64,000 bases of DNA, from IMG/VR virus record IMGVR_UViG_3300045988_125079, positions 32,001 to 96,000 of that record; one strand, written 5' to 3'. Below, one piece after another: positions 22,023 to 58,047 of the stretch. Each line of letters begins with the position of its first letter. The first letter of the stretch is position 1. This stretch comes from a virus. The notes beneath the pieces were generated by a model. That model saw only the letters and a list, made by a program, of their open reading frames with translations. It did no database searches and was not told where the DNA came from. A program made the position numbers and the translations under genes.

Positions 22023-22031
22023 AGAATCTCC

Positions 22032-22298
22032 TTATAATAATGATTTGCAAGATAACAGATTTGCTAAGCCTAAAAACATCTCATCTGTCCATAGGATATT
22101 GTTTTGAGCTTCTTCTATGACATATCGATTTAAAACATACCCCATGACCGTCACAGTTTTCCCCTCAAAAGGTTTTCTTGCTTTAAAAGATCTTTTTACG
22201 ACAACTCCAAAATCTTGGGATAACATCTTATAATTATGACCTTCTTCGAAGCAATCTATCACGCGAACATGGTCTCCGGGTTTATATTGATATCCCAT
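22032..22298 (-). CDS. small beta-barrel-like protein with CxSLL-COOH tail (LSCKSLL)
   Basis: MGYQYKPGDHVRV...ILWTDEMF...LSCKSLL. AAAGGAGAG upstream. Confidence 0.7.
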   Translation of the reverse strand: MGYQYKPGDHVRVIDCFEEGHNYKMLSQDFGVVVKRSFKARKPFEGKTVTVMGYVLNRYVIEEAQNNILWTDEMFLGLANLLSCKSLL

Positions 22299-22308
22299 AA
22301 TCTCTCCT

Positions 22309-22575
22309 TTACAGCAGTGACCGACACGTAAAAGGATTAGCCAGACCGACAAACATATCATCAGACCAAATAGTGTCTTTATTTGACTCTTCGATCATGT
22401 ATCCGCCCAGTCTATATCCGGAAATCGTTACAACTTTCCCAGCAAGACGTTTTCTTGTCGGCAACGACACTCCGATTGTCAGAATGCTTTTACCAGAAGA
22501 CATATAATGGTTTTTCCCTGGTTCAAATTTATCTATCACGCGAACTCTATCCCCAAGCTTATATTTGTAATCCAA
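22309..22575 (-). CDS. small beta-barrel-like protein with CxSLL-COOH tail (FTCRSLL)
   Basis: (TTG)DYKYKLGDRVRV...TIWSDDMF...FTCRSLL. Confidence 0.65.
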   Translation of the reverse strand: MDYKYKLGDRVRVIDKFEPGKNHYMSSGKSILTIGVSLPTRKRLAGKVVTISGYRLGGYMIEESNKDTIWSDDMFVGLANPFTCRSLL

Positions 22576-24943: not shown

Positions 24944-25210
24944 TCATAATAATGACTTGCATCTAAACTGATGAGTTATTTTTTCAAACATTTCATCGCA
25001 CCAGAGCCAATTACACTCTTTTATTTTATACGATCCAAAAGATGAAATATGGTCAATATGAACTAATTTCCCACGCATTGCCATCATCTCTTCAATAACA
25101 TAATCGCTTTCCTGTTCAGCATATGGCCCAGATTTCATACAATAAAGATGACCCATACTTAAATCTTTACGGACACGAACTGTATCTCCAGGCTTATATA
25201 GATAATCCAT
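24944..25210 (-). CDS. small beta-barrel-like protein with CxSLL-COOH tail (FRCKSLL)
   Basis: MDYLYKPGDTVRV...WLWCDEMF...FRCKSLL. GAGGAG upstream. Confidence 0.7.
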   Translation of the reverse strand: MDYLYKPGDTVRVRKDLSMGHLYCMKSGPYAEQESDYVIEEMMAMRGKLVHIDHISSFGSYKIKECNWLWCDEMFEKITHQFRCKSLL

Positions 25211-25221
25211 ATTTTCACTCC

Positions 25222-25482
25222 TCACAAGAGAGACTTACATACAATTCGACCCTCCGGTTCAAACATTTCATCTGTCCAATGCCAATTAATTTCGTTTAAG
25301 AGATATTGACCGCATGAAAATCCCTTGATATGGACAAACTGACCACGGAATTTCATCATATCGTCATTGGTGCTATTTGAACCATACTTGTAATCAGGGC
25401 CAGATTTCATACGGTACGATTGTTTGGTACTCAAATCGGCTCGAACCCGAACTCTCTGTCCAACTTTATATTTGTAATCCAT
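25222..25482 (-). CDS. small beta-barrel-like protein with CxSLL-COOH tail (IVCKSLL)
   Basis: MDYKYKVGQRVRV...WHWTDEMF...IVCKSLL. Confidence 0.7.
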   Translation of the reverse strand: MDYKYKVGQRVRVRADLSTKQSYRMKSGPDYKYGSNSTNDDMMKFRGQFVHIKGFSCGQYLLNEINWHWTDEMFEPEGRIVCKSLL

Positions 25483-25490
25483 ATTTCACC

Positions 25491-25763
25491 TCAAAGAAGA
25501 GACTTGCATGTAAGTGGCGTTAACGGTTCAAACATTTCATCGACGAAATAATTGCACTTACCATCTTCGATGATCTTGTACTTTCCATTTGCTTTATGAG
25601 AAATATGAACTATCTTTCCTGCCCAATTTGTTCTAATGCTGTATGTAGCGTAAGTGCTTGCATATCCTGGACCAGACTGCATTTGATATACATGTCCACC
25701 TTCAAGATGCTGCTTTACTTTAACAGCCTGTCCATTCCTGTATTTATATTTACTTTTCGACAT
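25491..25763 (-). CDS. small beta-barrel-like protein with CxSLL-COOH tail (LTCKSLL)
   Basis: MSKSKYKYRNGQAVKV...YFVDEMF...LTCKSLL. Confidence 0.7.
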   Translation of the reverse strand: MSKSKYKYRNGQAVKVKQHLEGGHVYQMQSGPGYASTYATYSIRTNWAGKIVHISHKANGKYKIIEDGKCNYFVDEMFEPLTPLTCKSLL

Positions 25764-25783
25764 TTTCTTTTACCTCCCAAAAT

Positions 25784-25876
25784 TTACAAAAGACTCGTAC
25801 AGTAAATAAATTTTGCAGGCACGAGCATTCCATCACGTACTTGTACCGCATCGCCAACTTTATACATACACGCCAT
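25784..25876 (-). CDS. 30-aa mini-protein with CxSLL-COOH tail (IYCTSLL)
   Basis: Hand-translated MACMYKVGDAVQVRDGMLVPAKFIYCTSLL. Lies between the integrase stop and 25763. Below the ORF-track cutoff. Confidence 0.5.
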   Translation of the reverse strand: MACMYKVGDAVQVRDGMLVPAKFIYCTSLL

Positions 25877-25879
25877 TTT

Positions 25880-26686
25880 TCATTCTCCATCAAACCAATC
25901 AGAAACTCGATCCGACATCCTGTCCATCTTTTCCTGTGCAGCCTTACAATACCTCATTGTGATTCTTTCATCGCTATGATTCAATTTCATCTGGAGAAGC
26001 TGCAGAGTATTTCCTTCGTCTTGAGTCCCCTCTGCACTCTTTAGCGCTGCCATTGCATATGTTTTTCGCATTGTATGTGTAGACAATTCAATATCAAGGC
26101 CGCACATTTTACCGGCATTTTTCAGGATACCATATATCGATCGAACATTAAGCGAACCGCCCTTCTGGCTCTGGAATAAAAACACATCTCGTGAGACTTC
26201 AAAATGCTGCTCGTCGTAATATTCTTTCAAAACTTCGGCAGCCATTTTAGGAATTTTACAGATATTTCGCTTTCCTGTTTTCTGCTCAAAAACATCAAGA
26301 TGGCTCTTTACTTTACCATTTAGTGTATAAACATCTTCCGTCTTTAGTTTTACAAGATCGCTGCAACGAAGACCGACAGAACAACCAAGAATGAACAGCG
26401 TTTTATTCCTGATTCTATATCCGACCTTACCGTTTTTACCAAGATAATCTACTACTTTTTTGAACTCCTCTTTAGATTGAATCGGACTAGCCGGAGTCGG
26501 CTTCTTTCGTCCATCGCAAGTGTAAAGACTTGTTGTTTTCGTCTTCTTTTGTTTTTTTCGAGCAGCTGTTACGGCGTCACGAATCATCTGCTGCAATTCA
26601 TCTTCAGATAACGTAATATGAGCTTCGTCAGAAGAATTAGGAAATATAATCAGCTTATCTTTTTCTTTTACCGCTGCTTCTGCCAT
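25880..26686 (-). CDS. tyrosine recombinase / phage integrase family
   Basis: GLRCSDL (Arg I), HTMRKTY (HxxR) and LNHSDERITMRYC (His and catalytic Tyr). Confidence 0.8.
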   Translation of the reverse strand: MAEAAVKEKDKLIIFPNSSDEAHITLSEDELQQMIRDAVTAARKKQKKTKTTSLYTCDGRKKPTPASPIQSKEEFKKVVDYLGKNGKVGYRIRNKTLFILGCSVGLRCSDLVKLKTEDVYTLNGKVKSHLDVFEQKTGKRNICKIPKMAAEVLKEYYDEQHFEVSRDVFLFQSQKGGSLNVRSIYGILKNAGKMCGLDIELSTHTMRKTYAMAALKSAEGTQDEGNTLQLLQMKLNHSDERITMRYCKAAQEKMDRMSDRVSDWFDGE

Positions 26687-26713
26687 ATTGTAGCCTCCTT
26701 ATATGTGTTACAT

Positions 26714-26968
26714 TTACAGCAAACTTCGACACGAAAACGGTGCAGCACCTTCAAGCATTCCGTCCGACCAGAGATAGTTTCCATCATCTATATCGAGAAT
26801 ATAAAATCCACTTTTGTATCCTACGATTTTAGTAGTCATCCCTTCATAACTCGACATATGTAAACCAAGTCCGCAGTAATTCCCAGGACACGGTCCAGAT
26901 ACCATTGGAAGATTTTTTACCGGAGATTCTATTTTGACTTTTTGTCCAATTTTATATTTGTAATTCAT
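26714..26968 (-). CDS. small beta-barrel-like protein with CxSLL-COOH tail (FSCRSLL)
   Basis: MNYKYKIGQKVKI...YLWSDGML...FSCRSLL. Start trimmed to the ATG aligned with paralogs. Confidence 0.7.
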   Translation of the reverse strand: MNYKYKIGQKVKIESPVKNLPMVSGPCPGNYCGLGLHMSSYEGMTTKIVGYKSGFYILDIDDGNYLWSDGMLEGAAPFSCRSLL

Positions 26969-27034
26969 ACTATACCTTTCTTTCACACTCTCTTCTAATT
27001 GGTTGGAGGCCAGAGAGGAGTTCAAAGCGAGAGG

Positions 27035-27299: not shown

Positions 27300-27662
27300 T
27301 TACTTTTCAACAATAGAATCCGAATCATCTATTTCTTCTGACTCTTCATCGAGAGCGTCATCTAGTTCCAATAAATACTGATTCAAGGCGTCTCGGCCAG
27401 CCTCAAGCATTGCTCGATGGATTTCAGGTTCTGCATCCTTTAAAAGATCCCCACAAAGTGCAAGATCCTCAGCTTCAAACCCCGTAGATTCCATATCCTT
27501 GATGGCATCCGCGACATCTGAAGGGGCCCAAAATACCATAGCACGATGTTCGTCTTCATCGAGGACTTCAACATCGTCATTTACCACTGCTCTCACATAA
27601 TCAGCGACATTTTCAAGCAGCTCAGGTGGCACAGAACCGTCACGACACATAATTTCAATCAT
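27300..27662 (-). CDS. highly acidic small protein (120 aa; DNA-mimic/anti-defence candidate)
   Basis: Asp/Glu-rich throughout (for example LDDALDEESEEIDDSDS). Start at MIEIMCRDG with GGAGGA upstream. Immediately downstream of the RT. Confidence 0.6.
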   Translation of the reverse strand: MIEIMCRDGSVPPELLENVADYVRAVVNDDVEVLDEDEHRAMVFWAPSDVADAIKDMESTGFEAEDLALCGDLLKDAEPEIHRAMLEAGRDALNQYLLELDDALDEESEEIDDSDSIVEK

Positions 27663-27675
27663 AAATCCTCCTTTG

Positions 27676-28908
27676 TTATGCGGCATCTTTTGGACGAAGA
27701 TCGTCTTTAATCATAGCCATCACATCAACATGGTATTTGTTGTTGGCTTTTGAAATCAACGCTTTGATTTTGTCTTTTTCTACCATTTTATAATAGCTGA
27801 TAAGACCATTAAGCTCCTGAACGTCTTCAATTGTCCAAGGAGCATTTTCCTTTTTACAGCGGATATAGTTGGACATCATAATCTTGAATGTCTTGATGTT
27901 ACGCCATCCAACCGTGATTTCATTGTTCTGATTCCACATCAAGCCGAGCACCCAGTTTTTACTCGAATGACGATTGCCGTAATGAGTTTTTTCTTCATTC
28001 AGAGTAAATGGAGCATGGATATACGCCAGAATATTTTTGATTACATCCTGCATCTCCATATAGTCAAAACTCAAATAACAACTAATCGTGATATCATCCG
28101 CATATCTTGTATAAGTAAAATCACGAGTAATGCCATCTTTCATTTTGAAACCATGACGAATTTTTCGACTCAGCAAATGATCAAATGGAATCATCATGAC
28201 ATTCGTAAGCCAAGGACTCAAGGGGCTTCCCTGCGGTAATCCATTGCGAAGAAAAGCAATCTTTAATGCATCACTCAACGCTTCATGGCCGCCGAATGGA
28301 TCTTGCATGATAAGAGCGAACGGATAAATCACACTCAACATTCCCATAACAAACTCTGGATTAGAGCTGGGGAAAAATCCGTGAAAGTCGAATTTTACAG
28401 ACCAGTTATTTTCATAAATAACCTGCTCTTTTTCTCCTGTTGTCGGGTTCGTTTTAGTCCGCACATGCCCTTCCTGATGTTTTTTCACAGCAGTCAAAGT
28501 AGACCGATGCGGAACATAAGCATGTGCCGCAGTATGATAGTCTGCAAGCATAAAGCTTTTTAACAACGTTTGCAGTTCGTTCAATGCGTCACTAAGGATT
28601 TTGTCTGGAGCATCAATTGGCCGCATGCCACCTGTTTTTTTGGGAATTTCATAGTGAGTATAGTGAACAGACATATCCGGTTCAGATTCGAGCTGTTCGT
28701 ATTTCTTATTAAACGCTTCGAGTTCTCGAATCATTCGGTTAATATCTGTCATGGCTCTCAAACGTGGGGTAAGTTCGTCTCTACAAACAGTCACAGTCGA
28801 AGTAACATCTTCTCGATATTTCAATTTCTCAGACTCGATAATGCCTGCAAGAATCTCATCGATTGTGATCTGTCTCGTTTTAGGGGCTGCTTTGTATGTA
28901 ATATACAT
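27676..28908 (-). CDS. reverse transcriptase (retron/Abi/DRT-like, stand-alone RT domain)
   Basis: RT motifs KKTGGMRPIDAP (1), HAYVPHRS (2a), KFDFHGFFPS (3), GLPQGSPLSPWLTN (4), YTRYADDITIS (5) and KNWVLGL (7). No endonuclease, maturase or Cas domains. Confidence 0.85.
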   Translation of the reverse strand: MYITYKAAPKTRQITIDEILAGIIESEKLKYREDVTSTVTVCRDELTPRLRAMTDINRMIRELEAFNKKYEQLESEPDMSVHYTHYEIPKKTGGMRPIDAPDKILSDALNELQTLLKSFMLADYHTAAHAYVPHRSTLTAVKKHQEGHVRTKTNPTTGEKEQVIYENNWSVKFDFHGFFPSSNPEFVMGMLSVIYPFALIMQDPFGGHEALSDALKIAFLRNGLPQGSPLSPWLTNVMMIPFDHLLSRKIRHGFKMKDGITRDFTYTRYADDITISCYLSFDYMEMQDVIKNILAYIHAPFTLNEEKTHYGNRHSSKNWVLGLMWNQNNEITVGWRNIKTFKIMMSNYIRCKKENAPWTIEDVQELNGLISYYKMVEKDKIKALISKANNKYHVDVMAMIKDDLRPKDAA

Positions 28909-28929
28909 ATTATCTTCCTCTTATCGTGA

Positions 28930-29165
28930 TCTAAATAGGTCTCAGCTCATTCCAAGCCTGATCGCAGTGCGGATCTTGACTATGTTGTTGAGCGATACAT
29001 CGTAAAATTTCACCCTGCAGTGACGCTGATGACGTCGACTACCTGGAGGATGGCCGTTGCCTCCGCGGTACCTCCATGGCCATCGGCGGCTCGCGGGGCA
29101 CCTCCCTCGTTCTACCTTTGCGAACCAATCGGATCTCCGGTTGGACTGTGGTTAACAGTAATTCA
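28930..29165 (+). ncRNA. GC-rich structured element, copy B (same family as A and C)
   Basis: Helices GATGGCC/GGCCATC and CCGCG/CGCGG. The 3' module is CTACCTTTGCGAA, hairpin CCAATCGG-ATCT-CCGGTTGG, hairpin CTGT-GGTTA-ACAG, then TAATTCA. Confidence 0.4.
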
Positions 29166-29185
29166 TCACGATTTTATTTCAAATT

Positions 29186-29860
29186 TTAACTTGCAATAAC
29201 ACTATGCTGATAAGGATCAACAACAATCATCTTGTTGACTTTATTCTTCCCCATAGCAAATCCGATGAAATTCGTAACAGCCTGACAGCAGATTTCACGA
29301 ACTGTCGGAGCAAGTCCCTGAACAACGCCACATGCAGAAACGGGCGTACTTGCCGTGGCTTCTTCGTGAGTGAAATCCATAGAATTTTTGAGATTTTCCT
29401 TCATGGATTCATCCATCCAATCAGCCGCCCAACACTGAGCGTCGTAAAGACCGGTTCGGATATCAAACACGCCCTTAATATTGGGATTATATTTGTTCTT
29501 CTCCATGAAATCTTTTCGAATTTCAATGTTGTCAACAGCCAGGAAAACATATCCCTGAACCTGTTCACCATGCCAACCATTGGGTTTGATGATGATATCG
29601 TCCTTCGCGTCAGGATTAATCATGCAGATGAGATTTGCAACAGCTTCAACCTTCGGATGACCAATATCCTGCTGGAAAAACATTTGGTTCACGATATTCT
29701 TCGATTCAACGATGTCCATATCCCAAAGCGTAAAATTAGTGAGGCCGTATCGAGCCAACAGCTCAGCCACAGTCGAACCAACAGAACCACAGCCAATGAT
29801 ATGCACCTGGCCACGAATTTCTTTAGGATTGAAAATCATCTCAATCTTGCTCAGATTCAT
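29186..29860 (-). CDS. ThiF/MoeB/E1-like adenylyltransferase (short, no obvious catalytic-Cys domain)
   Basis: HIIGCGSVGSTVAELLARYGL is a Rossmann GxGxxG motif at the N-terminus. 224 aa. Confidence 0.75.
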   Translation of the reverse strand: MNLSKIEMIFNPKEIRGQVHIIGCGSVGSTVAELLARYGLTNFTLWDMDIVESKNIVNQMFFQQDIGHPKVEAVANLICMINPDAKDDIIIKPNGWHGEQVQGYVFLAVDNIEIRKDFMEKNKYNPNIKGVFDIRTGLYDAQCWAADWMDESMKENLKNSMDFTHEEATASTPVSACGVVQGLAPTVREICCQAVTNFIGFAMGKNKVNKMIVVDPYQHSVIAS

Positions 29861-29877
29861 TTGTTTATCCTTTCTTT

Positions 29878-30840
29878 TTAATCCTGAAATGCATCAATGT
29901 CGTTATAATACGGCCAGCAACTCGAATTACCGACTGCTTCCAATTCTTCAGGATGCTCTTCGTAATACTTGGCGAGATTGCTTTTTGCCGGCACTTTCGG
30001 AGCGGCGCTGCCAGTTACCGTCTTCTTCGACTCTTCTTTTTTTGTCCCGACCAACGGGGTTTTCGGGTACGTAACGGTGGAGCCGTATACCTTACTTGCA
30101 CCCGCGCCTCCTGCAGAATATCCTCCATTGCTTCCAATTGCGTTTGCGCTGTAATTGGTATTTCCGGTCCAATTCCCTGTCGCGCCATATACAGGTGTTG
30201 TGGCAATTTTGTTCTTAACAATCTGGTCTGCGTTTTCGAGAAATCGAGAAGAATCAAAATCACCAACGGTGACATTCACATCCTCTCCTTCATAGATAAC
30301 GTTTGCCTTCAGATCAATAACCCGAACATTATACTCACGCCGCTTGTTCCAAATCATAAAGATTTCATAGCTATCCATCGGCATAGTATCAACGAAACGC
30401 CACTGGTCTTCCATATCTGTAGCACTCGGGGTGACTCCCATATTGACATGAGAATGACCTTGAAAATGCAGACTGTTAAAATCCTCATCGGGCAGCTTCG
30501 CGTACCACATAGAATACTCTCCCCAATCGGTATTCACGGTCGCTCCCGTGACAGTCTGGGGATAAAGCAGAATCTTAGTAATCTGAAAGTGAGTATCATC
30601 GATTCGATTCACCGTGCCACACCACGCGACTTCGGACGAGAAGTGGTTAATCAGAGCGAACATCTGATGATATGCTTCGTAGGTGAAATTCACTGTGATT
30701 GCATTCTTCTGCTTTACTGCAGGAAATTCTGCGCTATATGTAAACTTATCACTGCGGATATAATTCATAGCCATCAGCTGTTCATAAAGCTTCTGTGCTG
30801 CGTTCTTTGCGTACTCCTGTGAAATCTTAATCGGCTTCAT
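29878..30840 (-). CDS. JAB/MPN (JAMM) metallopeptidase with Gly/Ser-rich C-terminal extension
   Basis: HFQGHSHVNMGVTPSATD matches HxH-x7-S-xx-D. A low-complexity tail follows. Confidence 0.75.
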   Translation of the reverse strand: MKPIKISQEYAKNAAQKLYEQLMAMNYIRSDKFTYSAEFPAVKQKNAITVNFTYEAYHQMFALINHFSSEVAWCGTVNRIDDTHFQITKILLYPQTVTGATVNTDWGEYSMWYAKLPDEDFNSLHFQGHSHVNMGVTPSATDMEDQWRFVDTMPMDSYEIFMIWNKRREYNVRVIDLKANVIYEGEDVNVTVGDFDSSRFLENADQIVKNKIATTPVYGATGNWTGNTNYSANAIGSNGGYSAGGAGASKVYGSTVTYPKTPLVGTKKEESKKTVTGSAAPKVPAKSNLAKYYEEHPEELEAVGNSSCWPYYNDIDAFQD

Positions 30841-30854
30841 TTATATCTCCCCTT

Positions 30855-32327
30855 TCAAGCAGCCGCCGTTTCCTTTTCTTTCTTTAAGATTTCGAACACC
30901 TCTGCGACTGTATAAAGATTACCAGCATCGTCCTCAAGATATTTCTTGGTAGAAATGGTTCGTTCATTGAACAGATCATGCATCAATTCGGAAACCACCG
31001 TAGAATCACCCCAGTTCAGGTAAGAACTGGAGCAGATAATAGTAGTAAGAGTCCCAATGAAATCATGATTCTGAGATAACGATTCAAAGGTCGCTTCATA
31101 GCCACCGTAGCAAGCATGGCGATCAATGTGCGGCTGACGGATACGATTTTCCATCATCTCCGGATGATCTTCCATATCACACTGAGTGACAACACGAACA
31201 CGATCATCAGAATTCACGCGCCATTCACAATATGTGCGGATCTTAAAGCGATGTTCTTTCCAAATAGCGCAGAAGAATTCTTTCGTTTCCTCAAAAGAGT
31301 ACGGGCTCTTCTGATAGATGTAGTTTCGTGCATCCCGTTTGTTCTCGACACTGTGCCGGAAAGCGCCTTCATCACAGTCATTCAAAAAGCCGGTGTAACC
31401 AACATACAGGTTGTCATCGCTCTTTCGGAGAAAGCTCAGAACTTTATTCGCTTTCAGATAATTTACAATAGCTGCCTCGTCTTCGTCTGTACAGCAAGCA
31501 CGATTACGAATTGCTTCAAGACGAATCTGCGCATCGTCCAGCTTGCTCCGATACTGGCGAATCTGATCGAAAGTATCCGTGATCCGACGTTCATAGCTGC
31601 GGATTTCTTCTTCTCCGCGACTAATAATCGAGTCATAATTGGCACTGCAGAATCCCTTCAGGCTTGCAGCCAATTTCTTTCCATAGAAATCGCCAGCGTC
31701 ATAGATCTTCTGCATGGCATCGCAGAACTTGGCATCCTCTTGATTGTATAAAAACTGGATAATGGCCTTTTCTTCTTCTGTAATCGGCACTTTCTTAAAG
31801 CACCAAGGAGTCAGACGGGGAAAACAACTCGCCGCCATATGCATAGCCTGCATAATTTTTTGACGGCCAACAAAGATGATAGTTCCCTTCTTTTTCTCAT
31901 TCTGGTAAACCGTTACATCACCAGCCTTATCAATGTACTGTGAGACATCATCAAGTTTCTTCCAGCCGAGCTTCTTATAATCCTCGTTATATTCTTCGCT
32001 CTTTTTCATGATTTCTGTAGCATTATCGGTATCGAGGATATTAACCAGAACACCATAACGGAAAGTCTTAAAAGGACTGTCTTCGTGAACAAACGTCTCT
32101 TTCGTCAGTTCGCTCTCCTCAGAGCTAAAATAACTCGTGATAACCTGCAACTGAATGCGGCCGCCGATCTCATTCATCGCCTTCAAACGTTCCTCGTTCA
32201 GAAACATTCTCATAACAGCCAGCAGCGTGTTGTCTTTCACTTCGGTATCGTTCTGAGAAAGGATATTCTGATAAGCATCGTCACACTCATTTGTGCCAAG
32301 CTTAACAATAATCGGGTTGAAAGCCAT
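30855..32327 (-). CDS. hypothetical protein (490 aa) in the ThiF-JAB cassette
   Basis: Long ORF. AGGAGGAAAAATT precedes the ATG. The segment QPHIDRHACYGG might be an E2-like His...Cys site, but this cannot be judged by eye. Confidence 0.7.
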   Translation of the reverse strand: MAFNPIIVKLGTNECDDAYQNILSQNDTEVKDNTLLAVMRMFLNEERLKAMNEIGGRIQLQVITSYFSSEESELTKETFVHEDSPFKTFRYGVLVNILDTDNATEIMKKSEEYNEDYKKLGWKKLDDVSQYIDKAGDVTVYQNEKKKGTIIFVGRQKIMQAMHMAASCFPRLTPWCFKKVPITEEEKAIIQFLYNQEDAKFCDAMQKIYDAGDFYGKKLAASLKGFCSANYDSIISRGEEEIRSYERRITDTFDQIRQYRSKLDDAQIRLEAIRNRACCTDEDEAAIVNYLKANKVLSFLRKSDDNLYVGYTGFLNDCDEGAFRHSVENKRDARNYIYQKSPYSFEETKEFFCAIWKEHRFKIRTYCEWRVNSDDRVRVVTQCDMEDHPEMMENRIRQPHIDRHACYGGYEATFESLSQNHDFIGTLTTIICSSSYLNWGDSTVVSELMHDLFNERTISTKKYLEDDAGNLYTVAEVFEILKKEKETAAA

Positions 32328-32378
32328 AATTTTTCCTCCTATATGTAATTTTTATTTCAGGAGCCCAGATACTGGACA

Positions 32379-32408
32379 TATATAAGGCAGACTTTAACCG
32401 GCCTGCCA
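32379..32408 (-). terminator. rho-independent terminator candidate after the 76-aa gene
   Basis: Minus-sense GGCAG-gccggttaaagt-CTGCC followed by TTATATAT. Confidence 0.45.
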
Positions 32409-32483
32409 GCGGCTGCAATGCTTAGAATATCGTTGTAACCAATAACGATTTACTTTTTATTTGCGATTCTTTTCGTTAATCGT

Positions 32484-32714
32484 TTAACGGGCGTTATCAT
32501 GCTTCGCGACGACCGTGATATAGCATGCATCACCGACGCCCAGAGCAGTCAGAGACATGTTCAGCTTGTCGGGGGTCAGGATCGTACCATCCAGAGTAGC
32601 CTGAGCAGCGCTGAAATCAACGCCATTCTCAGTCAGGATCTCACGGGGAGTCTTAGTAGAAGCAGCGGGAACGGTGTTACGGTTGCCATTGGTAACGAGA
32701 GTAACGAAAGTCAT
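32484..32714 (-). CDS. ThiS/MoaD-like beta-grasp (ubiquitin-like) protein lacking a Gly-Gly end
   Basis: VTLVTNGNRNTV...TPREIL...GVD...ATLDGTIL...LGVGDACYITVVAKHDNAR parallels the ThiS/MoaD pattern (vNGe..v...tv.eLl....vavNg.iv....L.dGD.veiv). GC-rich codons. Confidence 0.55.
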   Translation of the reverse strand: MTFVTLVTNGNRNTVPAASTKTPREILTENGVDFSAAQATLDGTILTPDKLNMSLTALGVGDACYITVVAKHDNAR

Positions 32715-32834: not shown

Positions 32835-33272
32835 TTACTCAGCGTCAGCAGTGTGCTCAGGCTCGACCTCGTCATCGATGTTGATAGCTGCATTCATAGC
32901 GGCCTCATCAGCAGCGATGCTCTCCATTGCCGCATCAATCTGAGCCTCGATCTTCTCGCAGTTGACAATGGTCAGACCCAGATAGTCGCGAACCCATGCC
33001 TTGATGGCATCAGGAGTCTTCAGGTCGGCGGGCACCGGACGGCTCAGAACTGCAACCTTCTCACCGGTAACAGAATCGTTTGCAAACACGACACCGTTCT
33101 TGGAGATATCGTCCTTAGAATCGACCATCATGGCGCACACCGGAGTCTTGTCCTTGCCTTCGCCCTTGTACAGAACCAGAGCATCAGGACGGAACTTGGT
33201 GACCTTCTTCAGAGTCTCAACATTGAACTTGGAAGCGACGAACAGGGAATTGAACTTAACAGTTGCCTTCAT
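32835..33272 (-). CDS. hypothetical protein (145 aa, acidic C-terminus)
   Basis: ORF track. ATG start. GC-rich codon usage like the 76-aa gene. Confidence 0.65.
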   Translation of the reverse strand: MKATVKFNSLFVASKFNVETLKKVTKFRPDALVLYKGEGKDKTPVCAMMVDSKDDISKNGVVFANDSVTGEKVAVLSRPVPADLKTPDAIKAWVRDYLGLTIVNCEKIEAQIDAAMESIAADEAAMNAAINIDDEVEPEHTADAE

Positions 33273-33502: not shown

Positions 33503-33730
33503 TTATAATAGCGACTTGCAACAAATCTGATCGGAACATGGTTCCCATAGCCAATTAGGACACCATGAAATATGTATTTCACCATGTGAAAATGGATCGA
33601 TCATATCAACAATAATCTGTCCTTCTTCGTCAACAGCCACAATTTTCCCTCGCTTATGATAGTTGGTATCAGTGGCCGAGCATTCATTTCCAATTCTTAC
33701 CATCTGTCCGATACGAAATTTATATTCCAT
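33503..33730 (-). CDS. small protein with CxSLL-COOH tail (ICCKSLL)
   Basis: MEYKFRIGQMVRI...WLWEPCSDQICCKSLL. Confidence 0.7.
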   Translation of the reverse strand: MEYKFRIGQMVRIGNECSATDTNYHKRGKIVAVDEEGQIIVDMIDPFSHGEIHISWCPNWLWEPCSDQICCKSLL

Positions 33731-33739
33731 ATTTCCCCC

Positions 33740-33985
33740 TCATAGCAAAGACTTACATTCAAACGAAGGGCAGCGATCAAAATAGTCTGGTGATTTTCGC
33801 CATCGATACCCTTTCTTTAGCGGCGGATAACCAACAAGTGACACTTCATCTTCTAAAAGTTCCACAGTGAGTGTTCCATTAGGTGCAATGTCGACTACTT
33901 TGCCAAGTTTTCTTTGTGCCTCATCGCACCACATGTCATCAATATCAGTCGTTCTGACAAGATCCCCAATTTTAAATTTAGTCAT
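33740..33985 (-). CDS. small protein with CxSLL-COOH tail (FECKSLL)
   Basis: MTKFKIGDLVRT...DRCPSFECKSLL. Confidence 0.7.
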   Translation of the reverse strand: MTKFKIGDLVRTTDIDDMWCDEAQRKLGKVVDIAPNGTLTVELLEDEVSLVGYPPLKKGYRWRKSPDYFDRCPSFECKSLL

Positions 33986-33997
33986 CAGCTAATCCTC

Positions 33998-34234
33998 TCA
34001 CAACAACGATTTACAAACAAATGGCTTTGTTTTTACCTTCACCCAATTATCAGCAGTGAGCCACCATTCATAACCAGCCCCTACGTCTTCTCCGCTGCCG
34101 ATATCGGGCATTGCCTCAAGCATTTCAACAACGATATAGTCAACGTCTACTGCCTTCACGATTCCTTTCTTCCCGACATTCCCAGGAGCCCACATATGGG
34201 GAGCCGAAGCGACAATATCACCAACCTTAACCAT
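33998..34234 (-). CDS. small protein with CxSLL-COOH tail (FVCKSLL)
   Basis: MVKVGDIVAS...VKTKPFVCKSLL. Confidence 0.7.
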   Translation of the reverse strand: MVKVGDIVASAPHMWAPGNVGKKGIVKAVDVDYIVVEMLEAMPDIGSGEDVGAGYEWWLTADNWVKVKTKPFVCKSLL

Positions 34235-35650: not shown

Positions 35651-36562
35651 TTACTTCATATCATTCAGTACAGGGATGCTGGTATCACCGCCGACATAAG
35701 TAGGAAGCTTACCATCCCACTTTTCATACATCTGCTGCTGAATCAGCCGGTCAGTCAGAGACTCAGAGATGATTTTATTCGCCTCGGCTTCTGCGTTCGC
35801 CTTGGAAATCTTGGTCTGATTCTCAATCTCCTGCGCCTCGTCATTGCGCTCGGCCACAAAAGACTTGTTAATAGCAGCCTGAACAGACGCATCGTCGTAC
35901 TCGATGCCATCCTTCATACCAAGAACAGTAATCGTGATACCGCGCTCTGCAAAATACTCAGTCACATCCTTGCGGACATAATCCATAATCTCGGCCTTCT
36001 TCTCAAGGATCTCATTCATGGTGTACTTAGCGCACATTTCAACAAAGTCAGCTTCAACACGAGCACGGATTTCAGTATCCATAATCTCGGAGAGCTGCTT
36101 GTTATTGTAGGAATACAGGAACTTGACTGCATCGTTTTCAGTGTAGATCTGAGCAGAGCAGTTCATACCGACGGAGAAGCCAATAGACTCTTTGCTTTCG
36201 GCAGAGATGGACTGGTTGACAGTGCTGGTGCCACTATCCTTGCCCTCGGACCATTCACGAGTAACAGGAGTTCTATTGACGACGACTAACATATTATCCG
36301 GAACCCAAGTACCAATAATGTCAGTCGGCGACAGATGTCGCTTCGAGTAAGTAATGTACACCTGCTTGGCTGCCACCTTTGCCTCGGCGAGCATTGCCTC
36401 ACTCTCAAAGGACGCCTGATTTTCCCCACCCTCTGAAAGTGAAATCAGAAATGCAGTTTCATGAGGTTCGATTGTATGCACCTCTTTCTTAGTGCACCCC
36501 GTAAATGTCATCGCCATCACGATTGCACATGAAACTACGAAAATCTTTTTGAATTTCTTCAT
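35651..36562 (-). CDS. SPFH/band-7 (stomatin/prohibitin-like) lipoprotein
   Basis: Signal peptide with lipobox MTFTG-C. SPFH-like core followed by an Ala/Glu-rich helix (KANAEAEANKII). Confidence 0.7.
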   Translation of the reverse strand: MKKFKKIFVVSCAIVMAMTFTGCTKKEVHTIEPHETAFLISLSEGGENQASFESEAMLAEAKVAAKQVYITYSKRHLSPTDIIGTWVPDNMLVVVNRTPVTREWSEGKDSGTSTVNQSISAESKESIGFSVGMNCSAQIYTENDAVKFLYSYNNKQLSEIMDTEIRARVEADFVEMCAKYTMNEILEKKAEIMDYVRKDVTEYFAERGITITVLGMKDGIEYDDASVQAAINKSFVAERNDEAQEIENQTKISKANAEAEANKIISESLTDRLIQQQMYEKWDGKLPTYVGGDTSIPVLNDMK

Positions 36563-36872: not shown

Positions 36873-37544
36873 TTACTCCTTATCAAAGATATCCGTGTAC
36901 TTCGTGTACAGTTTACCGTTGTGGAAGTAAGTATTGTAATCGCACTGTTCAATATACCACCAGCGTTTCTGATGACCGGCCTTCAGGAAGTCATGCAGAT
37001 GATAAGTTGACTCGTAGTTCTCGTCCACACGCTGCCGGAACGAAAGCTCGTCAATCTCATCTGACGTTTCGACGTAATCAGCGATTCCATTGATTTCGTC
37101 CTCAGTCATATCGTCATCCACAACAAAGACCACTCGAACGATTTCGTTACCTCGACGACAAACATTCTCAATCTCATCTGTCGTATGCAGGTGATATACA
37201 ACACGGTCGAACTTATCAAACGGAAACAACATAATCTCGTGATTGTTTTCTGCATCAAAGTAACTGGTATGCAGCTCAATCTTGCGAAAAGAACGCCAAC
37301 ACGTCTCGAAAAAGCCACGCCACCATGCCTGATGCTCCCACCAGTGGAAAAGTGGATCGCCTCCTCCAGAAACAGACACCCAGTTGCAATCGTTGCATTC
37401 GTTATGAAGAACTTGCCACAGCTGAGCATAAGAAGAATACTCCCCTGTCGGTGTCATCTTGAGCTTGTTATTACGGACGATACACTCAGGGCAGCTGTAA
37501 TGGCAGCCGAAGTTCGTGATAATACTGAGATACTTGTCAGTCAT
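36873..37544 (-). CDS. small radical-SAM enzyme (activase/QueE-like size)
   Basis: FGCHYSCPEC matches CX3CX2C. SGGGDPLF is a glycine-rich SAM-binding motif. 223 aa. Confidence 0.7.
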   Translation of the reverse strand: MTDKYLSIITNFGCHYSCPECIVRNNKLKMTPTGEYSSYAQLWQVLHNECNDCNWVSVSGGGDPLFHWWEHQAWWRGFFETCWRSFRKIELHTSYFDAENNHEIMLFPFDKFDRVVYHLHTTDEIENVCRRGNEIVRVVFVVDDDMTEDEINGIADYVETSDEIDELSFRQRVDENYESTYHLHDFLKAGHQKRWWYIEQCDYNTYFHNGKLYTKYTDIFDKE

Positions 37545-38353: not shown

Positions 38354-38737
38354 TGGACCCGGTGGGATTCGAACCCACGTCCAAAACTAATACTCGATTA
38401 CAATTTTCTTACGCAATAGCCAGCATTTAGAATTTTGAAAAGGAATTCATGCCGCCGACACAGCAACCTTAGGGACGTAACGGTTGTTACATCACTCCAC
38501 CACTCGGTTTTGACGTCCGAGAACGCTAGTGTTTCTTACCGTTTACATCGGGTTCCGGGATTTATTCTTTGAACCGTCAAGCATTTACCTGCCTATCAGG
38601 ATGCTGTTTTGGGCACGGCATCAAGCCGCGCAACGATAACTGTTGTTGTTAGCGTTTATTTGTTTTTTGCCTCGTAAGGTGATGGCCGACCTGCGAATTG
38701 TAATTTTTCTTAGCCCTGTCGAAAACCTTTCGGGCCC
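38354..38737 (-). ncRNA. ~384-nt structured RNA closed by a tRNA-like acceptor stem and T arm
   Basis: 5' GGGCCCG pairs with 3' CGGGTCC, giving a G3-U70 pair. T arm GTGGG-TTCGAAT-CCCAC. A long-range 9-bp helix joins ATTACAATT and AATTGTAAT. Internal helices include GGACGT/ACGTCC and GTAAC/GTTAC. The 5' end follows the AUAU leader. Confidence 0.35.
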
Positions 38738-40402: not shown

Positions 40403-40550
40403 TCTACGAGAACAGAATACCACGTTGTCCTCTACATGTCAACTGTCATTTCGAACAGTAGATCATAATTGTTTTTGTGTGTTTTATGTTATTTGTTCCA
40501 TTTTTATAAAAAGTTTTCAACATCATCCTTCCATGTATTTTTGTTTCATC

Positions 40551-40841
40551 GAGATCTGATGAGTGCTGAGCGGTCTTCAGGCTGCCTGAGGCTGCAGGAG
40601 GTTAACGATGATTGGATGTCTTACCTGCGGACTGCCGGTATTTGGATTATTTCCTTGGCCAGGAAAATGCTGCTAGGTCGGACATTGGTACGTTTGGCCT
40701 GTCTAACAGGTGCCCTGAAGAAGTGAGTACCTGCGTGGGTCGACGTCGTCGCCTGGAAGGCGACATCTCGGTGCGGGCCTACCTCGTCCTACCTTTGCGA
40801 AACAGTTGGATATCCAGCTGCACTACTTTCGTAGTTATTCA
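40551..40841 (+). ncRNA. GC-rich structured element, copy C (same family as A and B)
   Basis: Helices GTCGCC-tggaa-GGCGAC and CCTGC/GCGGG, the latter with a G-U pair in plus sense only. The 3' module is CTACCTTTGCGAA, hairpin CAGTTGG-ATAT-CCAGCTG, hairpin ACTAC-TTTC-GTAGT, then TATTCA. Confidence 0.4.
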
Positions 40842-41061
40842 TCTCGATGTCCTTGATCAGCTTGCGTTTATTGTCTATGCGGAGCTATCAAAATCGACCA
40901 TTAAAATCACCTCTTTTCAAGTATGCCTTTTTGTTCCAATAATTATGCAGGCAAAACAGGGACAACGTGCACCAGTAGAGTAACTTCATTACTGAACCCC
41001 GTTATGTTATTTTACCCCTTGTTTATCTTAGACTTTTCAGGCTAAAAATTGATTCTGGCTT

Positions 41062-58021: not shown

Positions 58022-58047
58022 ACGTAGTGGGGAAGGAACTTCGTAGA

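What the first reader, a model, noticed from the sequence alone, without database searches (positions are those of the whole stretch)
29186..32714. ThiF/E1-like + JAB + 490-aa unknown + ThiS/MoaD-like protein: a ubiquitin-like conjugation cassette without a Gly-Gly end
The four genes, reading along the minus strand:
- a 76-aa beta-grasp candidate ending ...YITVVAKHDNAR, with no GG and followed by its own terminator
- a 490-aa unknown protein
- a JAMM peptidase (HSH-x7-S-xx-D) with a Gly/Ser-rich tail
- a 224-aa ThiF adenylation domain with no recognisable catalytic-Cys domain

Similar parts lists occur in bacterial Bil systems, CBASS Cap2/Cap3, PRTRC cassettes on mobile elements, and phage tail-associated Ubl-JAB genes. 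The compact E1, the non-Gly C-terminus and the position beside an RT do not match any of these as I remember them. The real substrate could be the 76-aa protein after JAB trimming. It could instead be the many CxSLL C-termini encoded by the same genome.
Basis: partly seen in the sequence, partly recalled or inferred. Interest (0 to 1): 0.65.

Follow-up and report, generated by a model that had tools for sequence, protein, structure and literature searches.

The report
Phage retron linked to ubiquitin-like cassette
The four genes are real and encode a ubiquitin-like protein, a minimal activating enzyme, a JAMM peptidase and an unknown 490-residue protein. In a very large group of uncultured gut phages they always sit in one block with a fifth unknown gene and a retron (a reverse transcriptase with its structured RNA). 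I found no description of this combination.

Summary
Observation confirmed. All four minus-strand ORFs exist, each with an RBS.

- **76-aa protein:** a beta-grasp ubiquitin-like protein (Ubl). AF2 pLDDT is 82.5 and all top 50 Foldseek hits are SUMO, ubiquitin, ISG15 or TtuB.
- **320-aa protein:** carries an invariant JAMM motif (E70, H129-S-H131, S139, D142).
- **224-aa protein:** a minimal ThiF/E1 with no E2 and no Zn motifs.
- **490-aa protein:** no Pfam, PHROG or PDB match, yet it founds a family of about 2,100 clusters at 50% identity.

In the 24 loci examined in detail whose sequence reaches that far, down to about 20% identity, the order is 145-aa protein, Ubl, 490-aa protein, JAB, E1, ncRNA, RT. 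The E1-RT gap encodes a retron-type ncRNA: a1/a2 inverted repeats, a G after a1, and covarying hairpins. A second, orphan copy lies 11.6 kb away.

The Ubl family ends in D-[N/G/S]-[A/G] plus 0-4 variable residues. In two lineages the Ubl is fused to the 145-aa protein. This supports JAB trimming and a non-Gly-Gly mature end.

A UBC fold in the 490-aa protein is not supported. The cassette fails the membership tests for Bil, CBASS, PRTRC and ThiS/MoaD. It is a new variant: a phage retron coupled to a Ubl system. Its function is inferred only.

The parts
32835..33272 (-). 145-aa protein of unknown fold ('X140'), first gene of the conserved block
   Evidence: Found in the same position in every locus with enough sequence. 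Fused to the C-terminus of the Ubl in L081 and twice in L095. It has no invariant Cys but invariant K2 and K26. No Pfam, NCBIfam, PHROG or PADLOC hit. Best PDB profile hit is E 0.09, not significant.
32484..32714 (-). 76-aa ubiquitin-like beta-grasp protein. Predicted mature end is ...K-H-D-N-A75, with R76 as a removable tail.
   Evidence: AF2 with 36 sequences: pLDDT 82.5, pTM 0.66, beta-beta-alpha-beta-beta-(alpha)-beta, disordered residues 74-76. Foldseek against PDB: all top 50 hits are SUMO, ubiquitin, ISG15, Caldiarchaeum Ub or TtuB; best E 5.6e-4, probability 1.00, TM 0.65-0.75. Profile against PDB: SAMP2 E 0.013. Family C-termini are D-[NGS]-[AG] plus 0-4 residues.
32386..32407 (-). 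Weak terminator-like hairpin between the Ubl gene and the 490-aa gene
   Evidence: 7-bp stem, 5 G-C pairs, tail TTATATATGT. The number of such sites in the region does not exceed shuffles. Possibly an attenuator. Low confidence.
30855..32327 (-). 490-aa protein of unknown function ('P490'): N-domain, 51-residue helix (226-276), C-domain. Invariant D32, H400, C406 and G408, in the motif [N/Q]-P-H-I-x-x-[Y/H]-x-C-x-G.
   Evidence: AF2 pLDDT 86.5, pTM 0.49. No PDB fold match below E 0.64. The only BFVD match is one uncharacterised metagenomic siphovirus protein, E 1.9e-25. 2,095 clusters at E<=1e-3 among 1.84e9 representatives. No Pfam or PHROG hit for 10 distant members. Invariant residues.
29878..30840 (-). 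JAMM/JAB metallopeptidase (residues ~50-200) with a low-complexity G/S/N/T/Y-rich tail (~210-320)
   Evidence: Invariant E70, H129, S130, H131, S139 and D142. Rpn11 chains are the top PDB profile hits, with the motif aligned, E 0.067. One member hits Pfam Prok-JAB at E 0.15 only.
29186..29860 (-). 224-aa minimal ThiF/E1 adenylation domain
   Evidence: Pfam ThiF 3.4e-20. PDB profile: UBA5 1e-13, TcdA 1e-10, MccB 1e-9, MoeB 2e-8, Cap2 1e-7. Invariant G23-C-G-S-V-G28, D47, D49, K70, D110, R115 and C177. The E1 Arg of the N-L-x-R-Q motif is replaced by N58/Q59. No CxxC motifs (sequence).
28923..29172 (-). Retron-type ncRNA 1 (msr-msd): a1 ATCGTGAT (29172-29165), G29164, two msr hairpins, a variable msd, a2 ATCACGAT (28930-28923)
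   Evidence: RNAalifold on 9 loci predicts the long-range a1/a2 stem, with one compensatory AU>GC, plus hairpins. In 27 copies 93.8% of cells are paired, against 69% in shuffles and 30-43% when slid. 18 of 21 pairs change on both sides, with 0 of 500 shuffles as high. No Rfam family is hit.
27676..28908 (-). 410-aa retron-type reverse transcriptase (YADD present)
   Evidence: Pfam RVT_1 2.9e-16. Best NCBIfam hit is retron St85 RT, 1.6e-43, 149 bits, below the 235-bit cutoff. Best PADLOC hits are retron RT_II-A 1.3e-38 and RT_XIII 1.3e-36. Present downstream of the E1 in all 24 loci examined in detail that extend that far.
27300..27686 (-). 128-aa acidic protein overlapping the RT stop codon; specific to the close clade
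   Evidence: Conserved after the RT in L003, L006, L010, L028 and L058 but not in distant loci. Not part of the core.
40548..40848 (-). Orphan second retron-type ncRNA: a1 ATCGAGAT (40848-40841), G40840, a2 ATCTCGAT (40555-40548)
   Evidence: Covariance model R1 scores 56.8 bits, E about 2e-13. Its a1/a2 pair is compensatory relative to copy 1. First seen as a 72% BLAST match.

Best explanation
This is one conserved phage module in which a retron is permanently coupled to a ubiquitin-like activation and deconjugation cassette. The retron consists of the RT plus one or more msr-msd RNAs.

Proposed mechanism:
1. The JAMM peptidase removes the short C-terminal tail of the 76-aa Ubl. Here that is R76; in fused versions it is the whole 145-aa protein. 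This exposes ...Asp-Asn-Ala-COOH. (Inferred from family patterns.)
2. The minimal E1 adenylates that carboxylate with ATP. It may then hold the Ubl on its invariant Cys177. (Inferred from conserved ATP-site residues.)
3. The activated Ubl is passed to a partner. The 490-aa protein, with its invariant His400/Cys406 pair, is the best candidate for the missing E2/E3-type carrier or specificity factor. The 145-aa protein, with invariant Lys2/Lys26 and recurrent fusion to the Ubl, is the best candidate for the direct partner or target. (Speculative.)
4. The JAMM peptidase also reverses the linkage. (By analogy with Cap3, BilC and Rpn11.)
5. The RT-msDNA complex acts as in other retrons, as the sensor or gate of this effector module, or is itself what the module acts on. 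(Speculative.)

The block is kept in one order across a very deep phage clade. It sits among early and accessory genes, including NAD-salvage genes and tRNAs. It therefore probably serves the phage during infection, in host takeover, counter-defence or exclusion of competitors, rather than in cofactor synthesis.
For: **Parts**
- Ubl beta-grasp fold.
- E1.
- JAMM motif invariant.
- Retron-type RT.
- Retron-type ncRNA with a1/a2 repeats, a G after a1 and covarying hairpins.

**Linkage**
- In 22 distant IMG/VR loci (P490 23-45% identical to the distant-set query; its members are ~20% identical to the window's), the order X140-Ubl-P490-JAB-ThiF-RT is kept on one strand (L101 is cut before the RT). 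Inserts of 0.5-1.2 kb separate some genes.
- The same order holds in L003, L005, L006, L008 and L010. L081 lacks a separate X140 because it is fused to the Ubl there.

**Processing**
- Family C-termini are K-x-D-[N/G/S]-[A/G] followed by nothing (9 of 19 distant members end exactly in ...DNA) or by R, AA, AE, AAI, TSK, VVM, TGMN, LAA, or CC after D-G-G.
- Ubl-X140 fusions with the same D-N-A junction occur in L081 and twice in L095, although X140 is encoded upstream of the Ubl when the two are separate.

**Other points**
- No E2 is found, but an invariant His/Cys motif is present in P490 across about 2,100 clusters.
- The published retron classification lists no ThiF, JAB or ubiquitin association. 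Four literature searches found no description.
Against: - No biochemical step is shown.
- All loci come from one phage clade, however deep. Conserved order could therefore reflect descent rather than functional coupling.
- The E1 lacks the conserved Arg of the N-L-x-R-Q motif, which is N58/Q59 here. Its activity is therefore assumed.
- A terminal Ala preceded by Asn is not the usual E1 substrate.
- P490 shows no structural similarity to E2, E3 or any solved fold.
- The equivalence of C177 to the MoeB/ThiF loop Cys rests on reading the sequences. hhalign aligned only residues 16-118.
- msDNA synthesis is not demonstrated, and the RT scores below NCBIfam retron cutoffs.
- Orphan ncRNA copies lie far from the cassette.
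Confidence: 0.5

Rival explanations
1. These are two independent neighbours. The Ubl/E1/JAB/P490/X140 genes form a self-contained phage Ubl system, and the retron is a separate element that is only syntenic because all carriers descend from one ancestral phage.
For: - Every locus found is a large viral contig of one clade.
- Inserts of up to about 1.2 kb separate ThiF and RT in several loci.
- ncRNA copies also occur kilobases away from the cassette.
- The 128-aa gene translationally coupled to the RT is not conserved with the cassette.
Against: - Order and adjacency persist at about 20% P490 identity while the flanking genes differ.
- The ncRNA sits directly after the E1 stop in most loci. 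The gap length is conserved at 290-310 nt in about 55 of the 65 close loci measured.
- Known retrons always have an adjacent effector (PMC7736814), and no other candidate effector is conserved here.
Confidence: 0.2
2. This is carrier-protein chemistry rather than protein tagging. The Ubl would be a ThiS/MoaD/TtuB-like acyl-adenylate or thiocarboxylate carrier, activated by a MoeB-like minimal E1 and matured by the JAB, as in CysO/Mec+ or QbsE/QbsD. X140 would be the MoaE-like partner, and P490 the enzyme that modifies a small molecule or nucleic acid, for example the retron RNA/DNA or phage tRNAs.
For: - The E1 has MoeB/ThiF size and no E2 is detectable.
- TcdA, a tRNA-modifying E1-like enzyme, is the second-best PDB family.
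- The Ubl-partner fusions resemble the known MoaD-MoaE fusions (my own knowledge), and TtuB is among the fold hits (rank 27).
- JAB-trimmed carrier tails are known for this class (Iyer et al. 2006, PMC1779556).
- The window encodes 11 tRNAs.
Against: - Most members have no Gly-Gly end.
- No rhodanese, cysteine desulfurase, ThiG, MoaE or PP-loop gene lies in the block.
- The best NCBIfam ThiF/MoeB equivalog scores are far below their cutoffs (69 against 159 bits; 39 against 376 bits).
- The top fold matches are SUMO and ubiquitin rather than ThiS or MoaD.
Confidence: 0.15
3. The E1 and/or JAB act on the hydrophobic C-terminal tails of the many small phage proteins, by MccB-like adenylation or tail processing. 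Here those tails are [F/L/I]-x-C-[K/R]-S-L-L.
For: - 16 ORFs in the window carry the tail. They lie on both strands and have unrelated bodies. Their codons are synonymous but different, so the tail is selected at the protein level.
- Seven of them flank the cassette.
- Other lineage-specific tails (SIDDLL, SLEEIL, SIDDFV, PLFHGFF, DIxCLM) recur on small ORFs flanking the cassette in L010, L094, L095, L098, L100 and L103.
- MccB is among the E1's PDB relatives.
Against: - Many loci with an intact cassette show no such tails within 7-8 kb: L005, L081, L083-L092, L096, L097 and L102.
- Every locus encodes a dedicated Ubl with a conserved, E1-style flexible end.
- At 224 aa the E1 has no room for the extra N-terminal peptide-binding domain of the 350-aa MccB.
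- Tail-bearing genes are spread over 38 kb of the window.
Confidence: 0.07
4. This is a prophage-borne abortive-infection defence system: a retron whose toxic effector is controlled by Ubl conjugation, analogous to Cap2/Cap3 control of CBASS. It would protect lysogens against other phages.
For: - Retrons and bacterial Ubl systems are known anti-phage systems (literature).
- A tyrosine recombinase lies 1 kb away and is syntenic in related loci.
- The PADLOC E1-E2 and retron RT models are the best defence-library hits.
Against: - The block is found only on viral contigs and on two short MAG contigs, never in a bacterial chromosome context in the one GTDB scan. That scan used patterns from the close family only.
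- It is kept at a fixed position across a deep phage clade. That is unlike mobile defence islands.
Confidence: 0.08

Closest known systems
Retrons (RT + msr-msd ncRNA + effector; types I-XIII of Mestre et al. 2020, PMC7736814)
   Same: - The RT's best matches are retron RT models.
- The ncRNA lies immediately upstream of the RT, with a1/a2 inverted repeats, a G directly after a1, msr hairpins and a variable msd.
- The accessory genes are adjacent.
   Different: - It is carried by phages rather than bacteria.
- The accessory module is a five-gene Ubl/E1/JAMM set that is absent from the published classification.
- Several ncRNA copies occur per genome: 2 in the window and 8 in L097.
- The RT is below NCBIfam retron cutoffs.
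- msDNA has not been shown.
Bil system (BilA Ubl, BilB E2, BilC JAB, BilD E1) and the related Bub operons
   Same: A free beta-grasp Ubl, an E1 and a JAB-type peptidase are encoded in one operon.
   Different: - No UBC-fold E2 is detectable.
- The Ubl ends in Asn-Ala plus a tail rather than Gly.
- The E1 is only 224 aa.
- It has extra P490 and X140 proteins and a retron.
- It is phage-encoded rather than a bacterial defence locus.
Type II CBASS Cap2 (E2-E1 fusion) / Cap3 (JAB)
   Same: An E1 adenylation domain is related (PADLOC E1-E2 models E 7e-19; Cap2 chains 1e-7). A JAB antagonist is present. The machinery is coupled to a nucleotide-polymerising enzyme.
   Different: - The similarity covers only residues 18-86 of the E1.
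- There is no E2 domain and no CD-NTase.
- The substrate is a dedicated Ubl rather than the polymerase's own tail, as far as can be seen.
Phage lambda/T1 tail-assembly Ubl-JAB pair (TAPI/TAPK; Iyer et al. 2006, PMC1779556)
   Same: It is phage-encoded. A Ubl is fused through a short linker to a second small domain, and a JAB is predicted to release it.
   Different: - TAPI ends in Gly, and that pair has no E1.
- It lies in the tail gene cluster.
- Here the block lies in an early/accessory region with an E1 and an RT.
ThiS/MoaD-type carriers with MoeB/ThiF and JAB maturases (CysO/Mec+, QbsC/D/E)
   Same: It has a minimal E1 without an E2, a small beta-grasp protein, and a JAB that trims a short C-terminal tail.
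   Different: Most members have no Gly-Gly. There are no sulfur-donor or biosynthetic genes. The E1 scores far below the equivalog cutoffs.
PRTRC cassette (ParB-related, ThiF-related)
   Same: A ThiF-family protein with small partners is carried on a mobile element.
   Different: PRTRC_ThiF scores 26 bits against a cutoff of 144.75. No PRTRC A-F or ParB model is hit.

Membership tests
Retron | RT belonging to the retron RT clade | tested here: inconclusive
   The best NCBIfam and PADLOC matches are all retron RTs (St85 1.6e-43; RT_II-A 1.3e-38). However, the score of 149 bits is below the 235-bit cutoff. No phylogeny was made.
Retron | ncRNA next to the RT with a1/a2 inverted repeats flanking msr-msd, and a conserved G after a1 | tested here: met
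   a1 ATCGTGAT, then G, with a2 ATCACGAT 244 nt apart. RNAalifold recovers the stem. a1/a2 covary between copies and lineages: ATCGAGAT/ATCTCGAT, ACACTGTGAT, CTTTGCAAT, TTCTGTAAC. 11 of 16 copies have a repeat of 8 nt or more, against 13% of random positions.
Retron | Production of branched multicopy ssDNA (msDNA) | not testable with these tools
Retron | Adjacent effector gene(s) co-inherited with the RT | tested here: met
   X140-Ubl-P490-JAB-ThiF precede the ncRNA and RT in all 24 loci examined in detail whose sequence reaches that far. Effector function itself was not tested.
Ubiquitin-like modifier (E1-activated beta-grasp protein) | Beta-grasp fold | tested here: met
   AF2 pLDDT 82.5. 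All top 50 Foldseek hits are Ub, SUMO, ISG15 or TtuB, with TM 0.65-0.75.
Ubiquitin-like modifier (E1-activated beta-grasp protein) | Flexible C-terminal tail ending in Gly(-Gly) | tested here: not met
   The window protein ends D-N-A-R. The family consensus is D-[N/G/S]-[A/G] plus 0-4 residues. Only a few members have G-G or G-A.
Bil / canonical E1-E2 Ubl conjugation | UBC-fold E2 with a catalytic Cys | tested here: not met
   There is no E2 Pfam hit in any of the five proteins. The P490 model has no UBC match. X140 has no invariant Cys.
Bil / canonical E1-E2 Ubl conjugation | E1 adenylation domain with ATP-binding residues and a catalytic Cys | tested here: inconclusive
   GxGxxG, D47, K70, D110 and C177 are invariant. 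However, the motif Arg is replaced by N58/Q59, and the position of C177 was judged by eye only.
JAMM/MPN+ metallopeptidase | E...HxH-x7-S-xx-D zinc and catalytic motif | tested here: met
   E70, H129, H131, S139 and D142 are invariant and align to the Rpn11 motif. Statistical support from profiles is weak (E 0.067; Pfam Prok-JAB 0.15 in one member).
Type II CBASS | CD-NTase plus a Cap2 E2-E1 fusion | tested here: not met
   PADLOC E1-E2 hits cover only residues 18-86 of the 224-aa E1. There is no CD-NTase hit.
PRTRC | PRTRC ThiF plus proteins A-F and ParB | tested here: not met
   TIGR03736 scores 26 bits against a cutoff of 144.75. No other PRTRC model is hit.
ThiS/MoaD sulfur-carrier pathway | ThiF/MoeB equivalog, a Gly-Gly carrier, and adjacent biosynthetic or sulfur-donor genes | tested here: not met
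   All ThiF/MoeB equivalog scores are far below their cutoffs. There is no GG. There are no such neighbours.
Diversity-generating retroelement | A template repeat near the RT matching a variable repeat at a gene's 3' end | tested here: not met
   The only second match of the RT-proximal non-coding region is the intergenic orphan ncRNA.

The most novel reading that the evidence does not exclude
Reverse transcription and ubiquitin-like conjugation are mechanistically coupled in a new class of phage retron. The RT, working from an array of interchangeable msr-msd RNAs (2 in this genome, up to 8 in a relative), would make msDNAs that scaffold, gate or are themselves joined to the Ubl machinery. 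That machinery uses an E2-less route, through the invariant His/Cys protein P490, and a non-Gly (Asn-Ala) Ubl end. This would be a Ubl pathway of a new type and the first retron used by a virus for its own infection programme.
Probability: 0.3. Interest if true: 0.9.

Novelty: new variant of a known kind. Interest (0 to 1): 0.8.

Why it matters
Retrons and bacterial ubiquitin-like systems are two of the most active topics in phage-bacterium conflict, and they have been studied as separate, host-encoded defences. Here both are fused into one invariant block on the virus side.

The block is common. Its signature 490-aa protein alone forms about 2,100 clusters at 50% identity, and none of the 32 members scanned hits a Pfam family (none of the 11 scanned hits a PHROG).

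If the coupling is functional, it would give three things:
- a new retron effector class;
- a Ubl pathway that works without a recognisable E2 and with an Asn-Ala end;
- a natural multi-template retron, which is of practical interest for retron-based editing.

It would also show what a large clade of uncultured gut phages does with a reverse transcriptase.

Tried and rejected
- **DGR reading of the RT.** Rejected. There is no variable-repeat match, and the only second copy is another ncRNA.
- **UBC/E2 fold in P490.** Foldseek against PDB, a per-member Pfam scan, hhalign against UBE2D2 and a profile against PDB sequences were all negative.
- **X140 as the E2.** Rejected because it has no invariant Cys.
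- **Named families.** PRTRC, CBASS and ThiF/MoeB equivalogs all score below their cutoffs.
- **CxSLL as a DNA-level site,** such as a recombination or terminator site. Rejected because the codons differ.
- **'CxSLL absent from distant loci, so irrelevant'.** Withdrawn after other lineage-specific tails were found.
- **Cultured relatives.** tblastn of P490 against 50,697 GenBank phages gave only the uncultured record MT835544. The E1 has 28%-identical relatives in Xanthomonas/Erwinia jumbo phages, but their neighbours are not homologous.
- **GTDB genomes.** Only two short MAG contigs were found.
- **Searches that failed.** The search for related loci with the 40-sequence distant alignment failed for lack of a conserved stretch. 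A single-protein scan found nothing. An index search with the distant profile returned only 4 proteins.
- **Rfam.** No family matches the ncRNA.

Full report
**1. Observation**

- ThiF, 29186-29860
- JAB, 29878-30840
- a 490-aa protein, 30855-32327
- a 76-aa protein, 32484-32714

Each has an ATG start, a TAA or TGA stop and a Shine-Dalgarno-like sequence. Gene spacing is tight: 17 nt between JAB and ThiF, and 14 nt between the 490-aa gene and JAB. The exception is 156 nt after the 76-aa gene. That spacer holds one weak terminator-like hairpin, no better than shuffled sequence yields.

**2. The parts**

*ThiF/E1.*
- It matches Pfam ThiF over residues 18-209 (3.4e-20).
- Nine family members share an invariant G23-C-G-S-V-G28, D47, D49, K70, D110, R115 and an A176-C177-G178 motif.
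- A family profile hits UBA5 (1e-13), TcdA (1e-10), MccB (1e-9), MoeB (2e-8) and Cap2 (1e-7). The hits mostly cover only the N-terminal half.
- ThiF/MoeB equivalog models score far below their cutoffs, and the PRTRC ThiF model scores 26 bits against 144.75.
- The Arg of the E1 N-L-x-R-Q motif is N58 in the hhalign alignment to MoeB and Q59 in the HMMER alignment to UBA5.
- The protein has no CxxC zinc motifs and no inserted Cys domain.
- Reading the sequences, C177 sits where the crossover-loop Cys of MoeB and ThiF sits. No tool aligned that half, so this is an inference.

*JAB.*
- It has no hit in Pfam, NCBIfam, PHROGs or PADLOC.
- E70, H129-S-H131, S139 and D142 are invariant in homologues down to 30% identity.
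- A family profile puts Rpn11 chains first in the PDB, with the motif in register, at E 0.067.
- The C-terminal ~110 residues are low-complexity.

*The 76-aa protein.*
- With a 36-sequence alignment, AlphaFold2 gives pLDDT 82.5 and pTM 0.66. The topology is beta-beta-alpha-beta-beta-(alpha)-beta, with a disordered tail at residues 74-76.
- All 50 top Foldseek hits in the PDB are ubiquitin-type modifiers: SUMO1/2, ubiquitin, ISG15, Caldiarchaeum ubiquitin and TtuB. Best E is 5.6e-4, probability 1.00 and TM 0.65-0.75.
- Sequence profiles reach SAMP2 at E 0.013.
- It is therefore a beta-grasp Ubl.

*The 490-aa protein (P490).*
- It folds confidently (pLDDT 86.5; pTM 0.49) into two domains joined by a 51-residue helix.
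- It matches nothing in the PDB below E 0.64. In BFVD it matches only one uncharacterised metagenomic siphovirus protein.
- The motif itself is real and is the most conserved feature of the family: [N/Q]-P-H-I-x-x-[Y/H]-x-C-x-G.

**3. The unit is larger than four genes**

A profile search of 1.84 billion representative proteins finds 2,095 P490 clusters at E<=1e-3 and 902 at E<=1e-30. Nearly all of the 150 listed are 440-550 aa. None of the ten distant members tested has a Pfam or PHROG family.

I looked at the genomic context in five sets:
- 67 close IMG/VR loci
- five ENA, Logan or NCBI contigs at 22-49% identity
- three very distant Logan contigs
- 22 distant IMG/VR loci on 46-137 kb viral contigs
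- the window itself

Scanning the distant sets with HMMs built from the window's clade gave the same order on one strand in every locus long enough to show it: X140, Ubl, P490, JAB, ThiF, RT. The E-values were 1e-16 to 1e-134. Some loci have inserts of 0.5-1.2 kb between genes.

The acidic 128-aa gene that overlaps the RT stop is conserved only in the close clade.

Outside viral contigs, one GTDB scan found only two short MAG contigs. That scan used patterns from the close family only. GenBank phages hold only one uncultured record.

**4. The RT is a retron**

The RT's best NCBIfam and PADLOC matches are retron RTs, and it has YADD.

The ~280-nt gap between ThiF and RT is conserved in length. 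Aligned across nine loci, it shows:
- an invariant 5' ATCGTGAT-G-AAT
- two hairpins
- a variable GC-rich middle
- an invariant 3' TTAGATCACGAT just before the RT ribosome-binding site

The 5' and 3' elements are reverse complements. RNAalifold predicts this long-range stem, including one compensatory change, and finds 10 pairs with double-sided changes.

A covariance model of the 5' part finds a second copy in the window at 40767-40850 (56.8 bits). That copy has its own inverted repeat, ATCGAGAT/ATCTCGAT, 295 nt apart. This is a compensatory change relative to copy 1.

The model also finds copies right after ThiF or right after the RT in distant loci, eight copies in L097, and extra orphan copies in L005 and L010.

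Eleven of 16 copies have an inverted repeat of 8 nt or more, 244-364 nt downstream, against 13% at random positions. The repeat sequences differ by lineage, and a G usually follows a1.

Over 27 copies:
- 93.8% of cells pair, against 69% in shuffles and 30-43% with slid partners.
- 18 of 21 pairs change on both sides.
- 0 of 500 shuffles reach the observed values.

This alignment was fitted to the model, which inflates the values somewhat.

This is the anatomy of a retron msr-msd RNA. The published classification of retron-associated genes mentions no ThiF, JAB or ubiquitin association (PMC7736814). Four full-text searches found no paper joining the two.

**5. What the family says about mechanism**

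*Ubl C-termini.* The Ubl family ends in K-x-D-[N/G/S]-[A/G].
- Nine of 19 distinct distant members stop exactly at ...D-N-A.
- Others add R (the window), A, AA, AE, AAI, AAA, TSK, VVM, TGMN or LAA.
- Two members end in D-G-G followed by C or CC.

A conserved end followed by a variable, dispensable tail is the pattern of a Ubl precursor. It places the mature end at A75, with Asn-Ala taking the place of Gly-Gly.

*Fusions.*
- In L081 the Ubl is fused through ...KADNA-ADAHIAG... to an X140 domain.
- In L095 two such fusions sit beside a free Ubl and a free X140.
- When the genes are separate, X140 is encoded upstream of the Ubl. These are therefore true fusions rather than read-through.

The fusions tie X140 to the Ubl. 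They require an endopeptidase at the D-N-A junction if a free end is needed. X140 has no invariant Cys but does have invariant K2 and K26.

*Proposed sequence of events.*
1. JAB trims the Ubl.
2. The E1 adenylates A75.
3. The Ubl is transferred, possibly through C177 and then C406 of P490, to a target that may be X140.
4. JAB reverses the linkage.
5. The retron RT-msDNA acts as gate or object of the system.

Only the parts list and the linkage are shown. Every chemical step is inferred.

**6. Rivals**

- *Cassette and retron are independent neighbours kept by descent.* This cannot be excluded, because all carriers belong to one clade, however deep.
- *A carrier-protein pathway of the ThiS/MoaD/TtuB type.* This fits the E2-less minimal E1, the JAB maturase and the Ubl-partner fusion. 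It lacks Gly-Gly, sulfur donors and biosynthetic neighbours.
Distant loci lack this tail. However, several have their own recurrent tails: SIDDLL, SLEEIL, SIDDFV, PLFHGFF and DIxCLM. Other loci show none within 7-8 kb. A link to the cassette is possible but unsupported.
- *A prophage-borne abortive-infection role.* This is possible given the nearby recombinase. It fits poorly with a fixed position across a deep phage clade.

**7. Comparison and verdict**

The cassette works most like a Bil-type or Cap2/Cap3-type Ubl system joined to a retron, but it fails the membership tests:
- Bil: no E2 and no Gly end.
- CBASS: no CD-NTase and no E2-E1 fusion.
- PRTRC and ThiF/MoeB: scores are below the cutoffs.

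It meets the structural tests for a retron, apart from msDNA, which could not be tested.

I rate it a new variant of known kinds. It is widespread and undescribed in the literature I could search, and its function is unknown. Interest is 0.8.

Noticed in passing
window 21586-22503, 24944-27025, 33503-34234, 42067-42321 (minus strand) and 56791-59075 (plus strand): Sixteen ORFs of 64-182 aa end in [F/L/I]-x-C-[K/R/H/Y]-S-L-L. Their bodies are unrelated and the tail codons differ, so the tail is selected at the protein level. Distant relatives carry other lineage-specific hydrophobic tails on small ORFs: SIDDLL, SLEEIL, SIDDFV, PLFHGFF and DIxCLM. The general pattern is hydrophobic(-5)-x-x-hydrophobic-hydrophobic-COOH. 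This could be a docking, degron or packaging signal.
   Followed up: partly
window 40548-40848 (minus strand); also L097 (8 copies), L005 4612 and 5010, L010 1543 and 1969: Orphan extra copies of the retron-type ncRNA lie kilobases from the RT. Each has its own covarying a1/a2 pair and a different msd. This implies one RT serving several templates.
   Followed up: partly
window 15829-16581, 17278-18756, 19235-20062 (minus strand): An NAD-related gene cluster: NAD synthetase, nicotinamide phosphoribosyltransferase and ribose-phosphate pyrophosphokinase (PHROG hits 9e-59, 2e-162 and 4e-61). These are the kind of genes phages use to restore NAD+ against host defences.
   Followed up: no
window 20-95, 38354-38737, 46628-46708 (all minus strand): A suppressor-type tRNA with anticodon CTA (called tRNA-Pyl by ARAGORN), a phage tmRNA with tag ANNNSYRCAA, and a Twister-P5 ribozyme match (45.9 bits). 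There are also ten ordinary tRNAs. TAG ends only 2 of 56 long minus-strand ORFs.
   Followed up: no
window 25880-26686 (minus strand): A 268-aa tyrosine recombinase (Phage_integrase 1.2e-18) lies among the tail-bearing small genes. It is syntenic downstream of the RT in L003, L005, L006 and L010. A second integrase-like ORF lies at 4066-5100.
   Followed up: no
L081 7212-7841; L095 6119-6736 and 6848-7480: Natural fusions of the Ubl to the X140 domain across a ...KADNA-linker junction. L095 also keeps a free Ubl and a free X140. L094, L096, L098 and L099 carry an extra 209-231-aa partial paralogue of P490 upstream.
   Followed up: partly
L105 (Xanthomonas phage PhiXhv-15, PV764602, 84889-88768): Cultured Xanthomonas/Erwinia jumbo phages encode a 227-aa minimal ThiF that is 28% identical to this one, with the same N-x-x-N-Q and A-C-G motifs. 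It sits beside an 892-aa ORF and a 141-aa ORF ending ...AKASGG. My HMMs detect no homologue of the JAB, RT, P490 or X140 families among the ten ORFs tested there. This is probably a different phage E1-Ubl pair.
   Followed up: partly
window 36873-37544 (minus strand) and 35651-36562 (minus strand): A 223-aa ORF with a C-x3-C-x2-C motif (GCHYSCPEC), typical of radical-SAM enzymes. Next to it is a 303-aa lipoprotein-like ORF whose homologue in L006 is Band_7/SPFH.
   Followed up: no
window 22576-24645 (minus strand): A 689-aa protein that matches PHROG_1735 end to end (1.5e-256; DUF8224 in a relative), function unknown. It is conserved next to the small-gene array in related loci.
   Followed up: no
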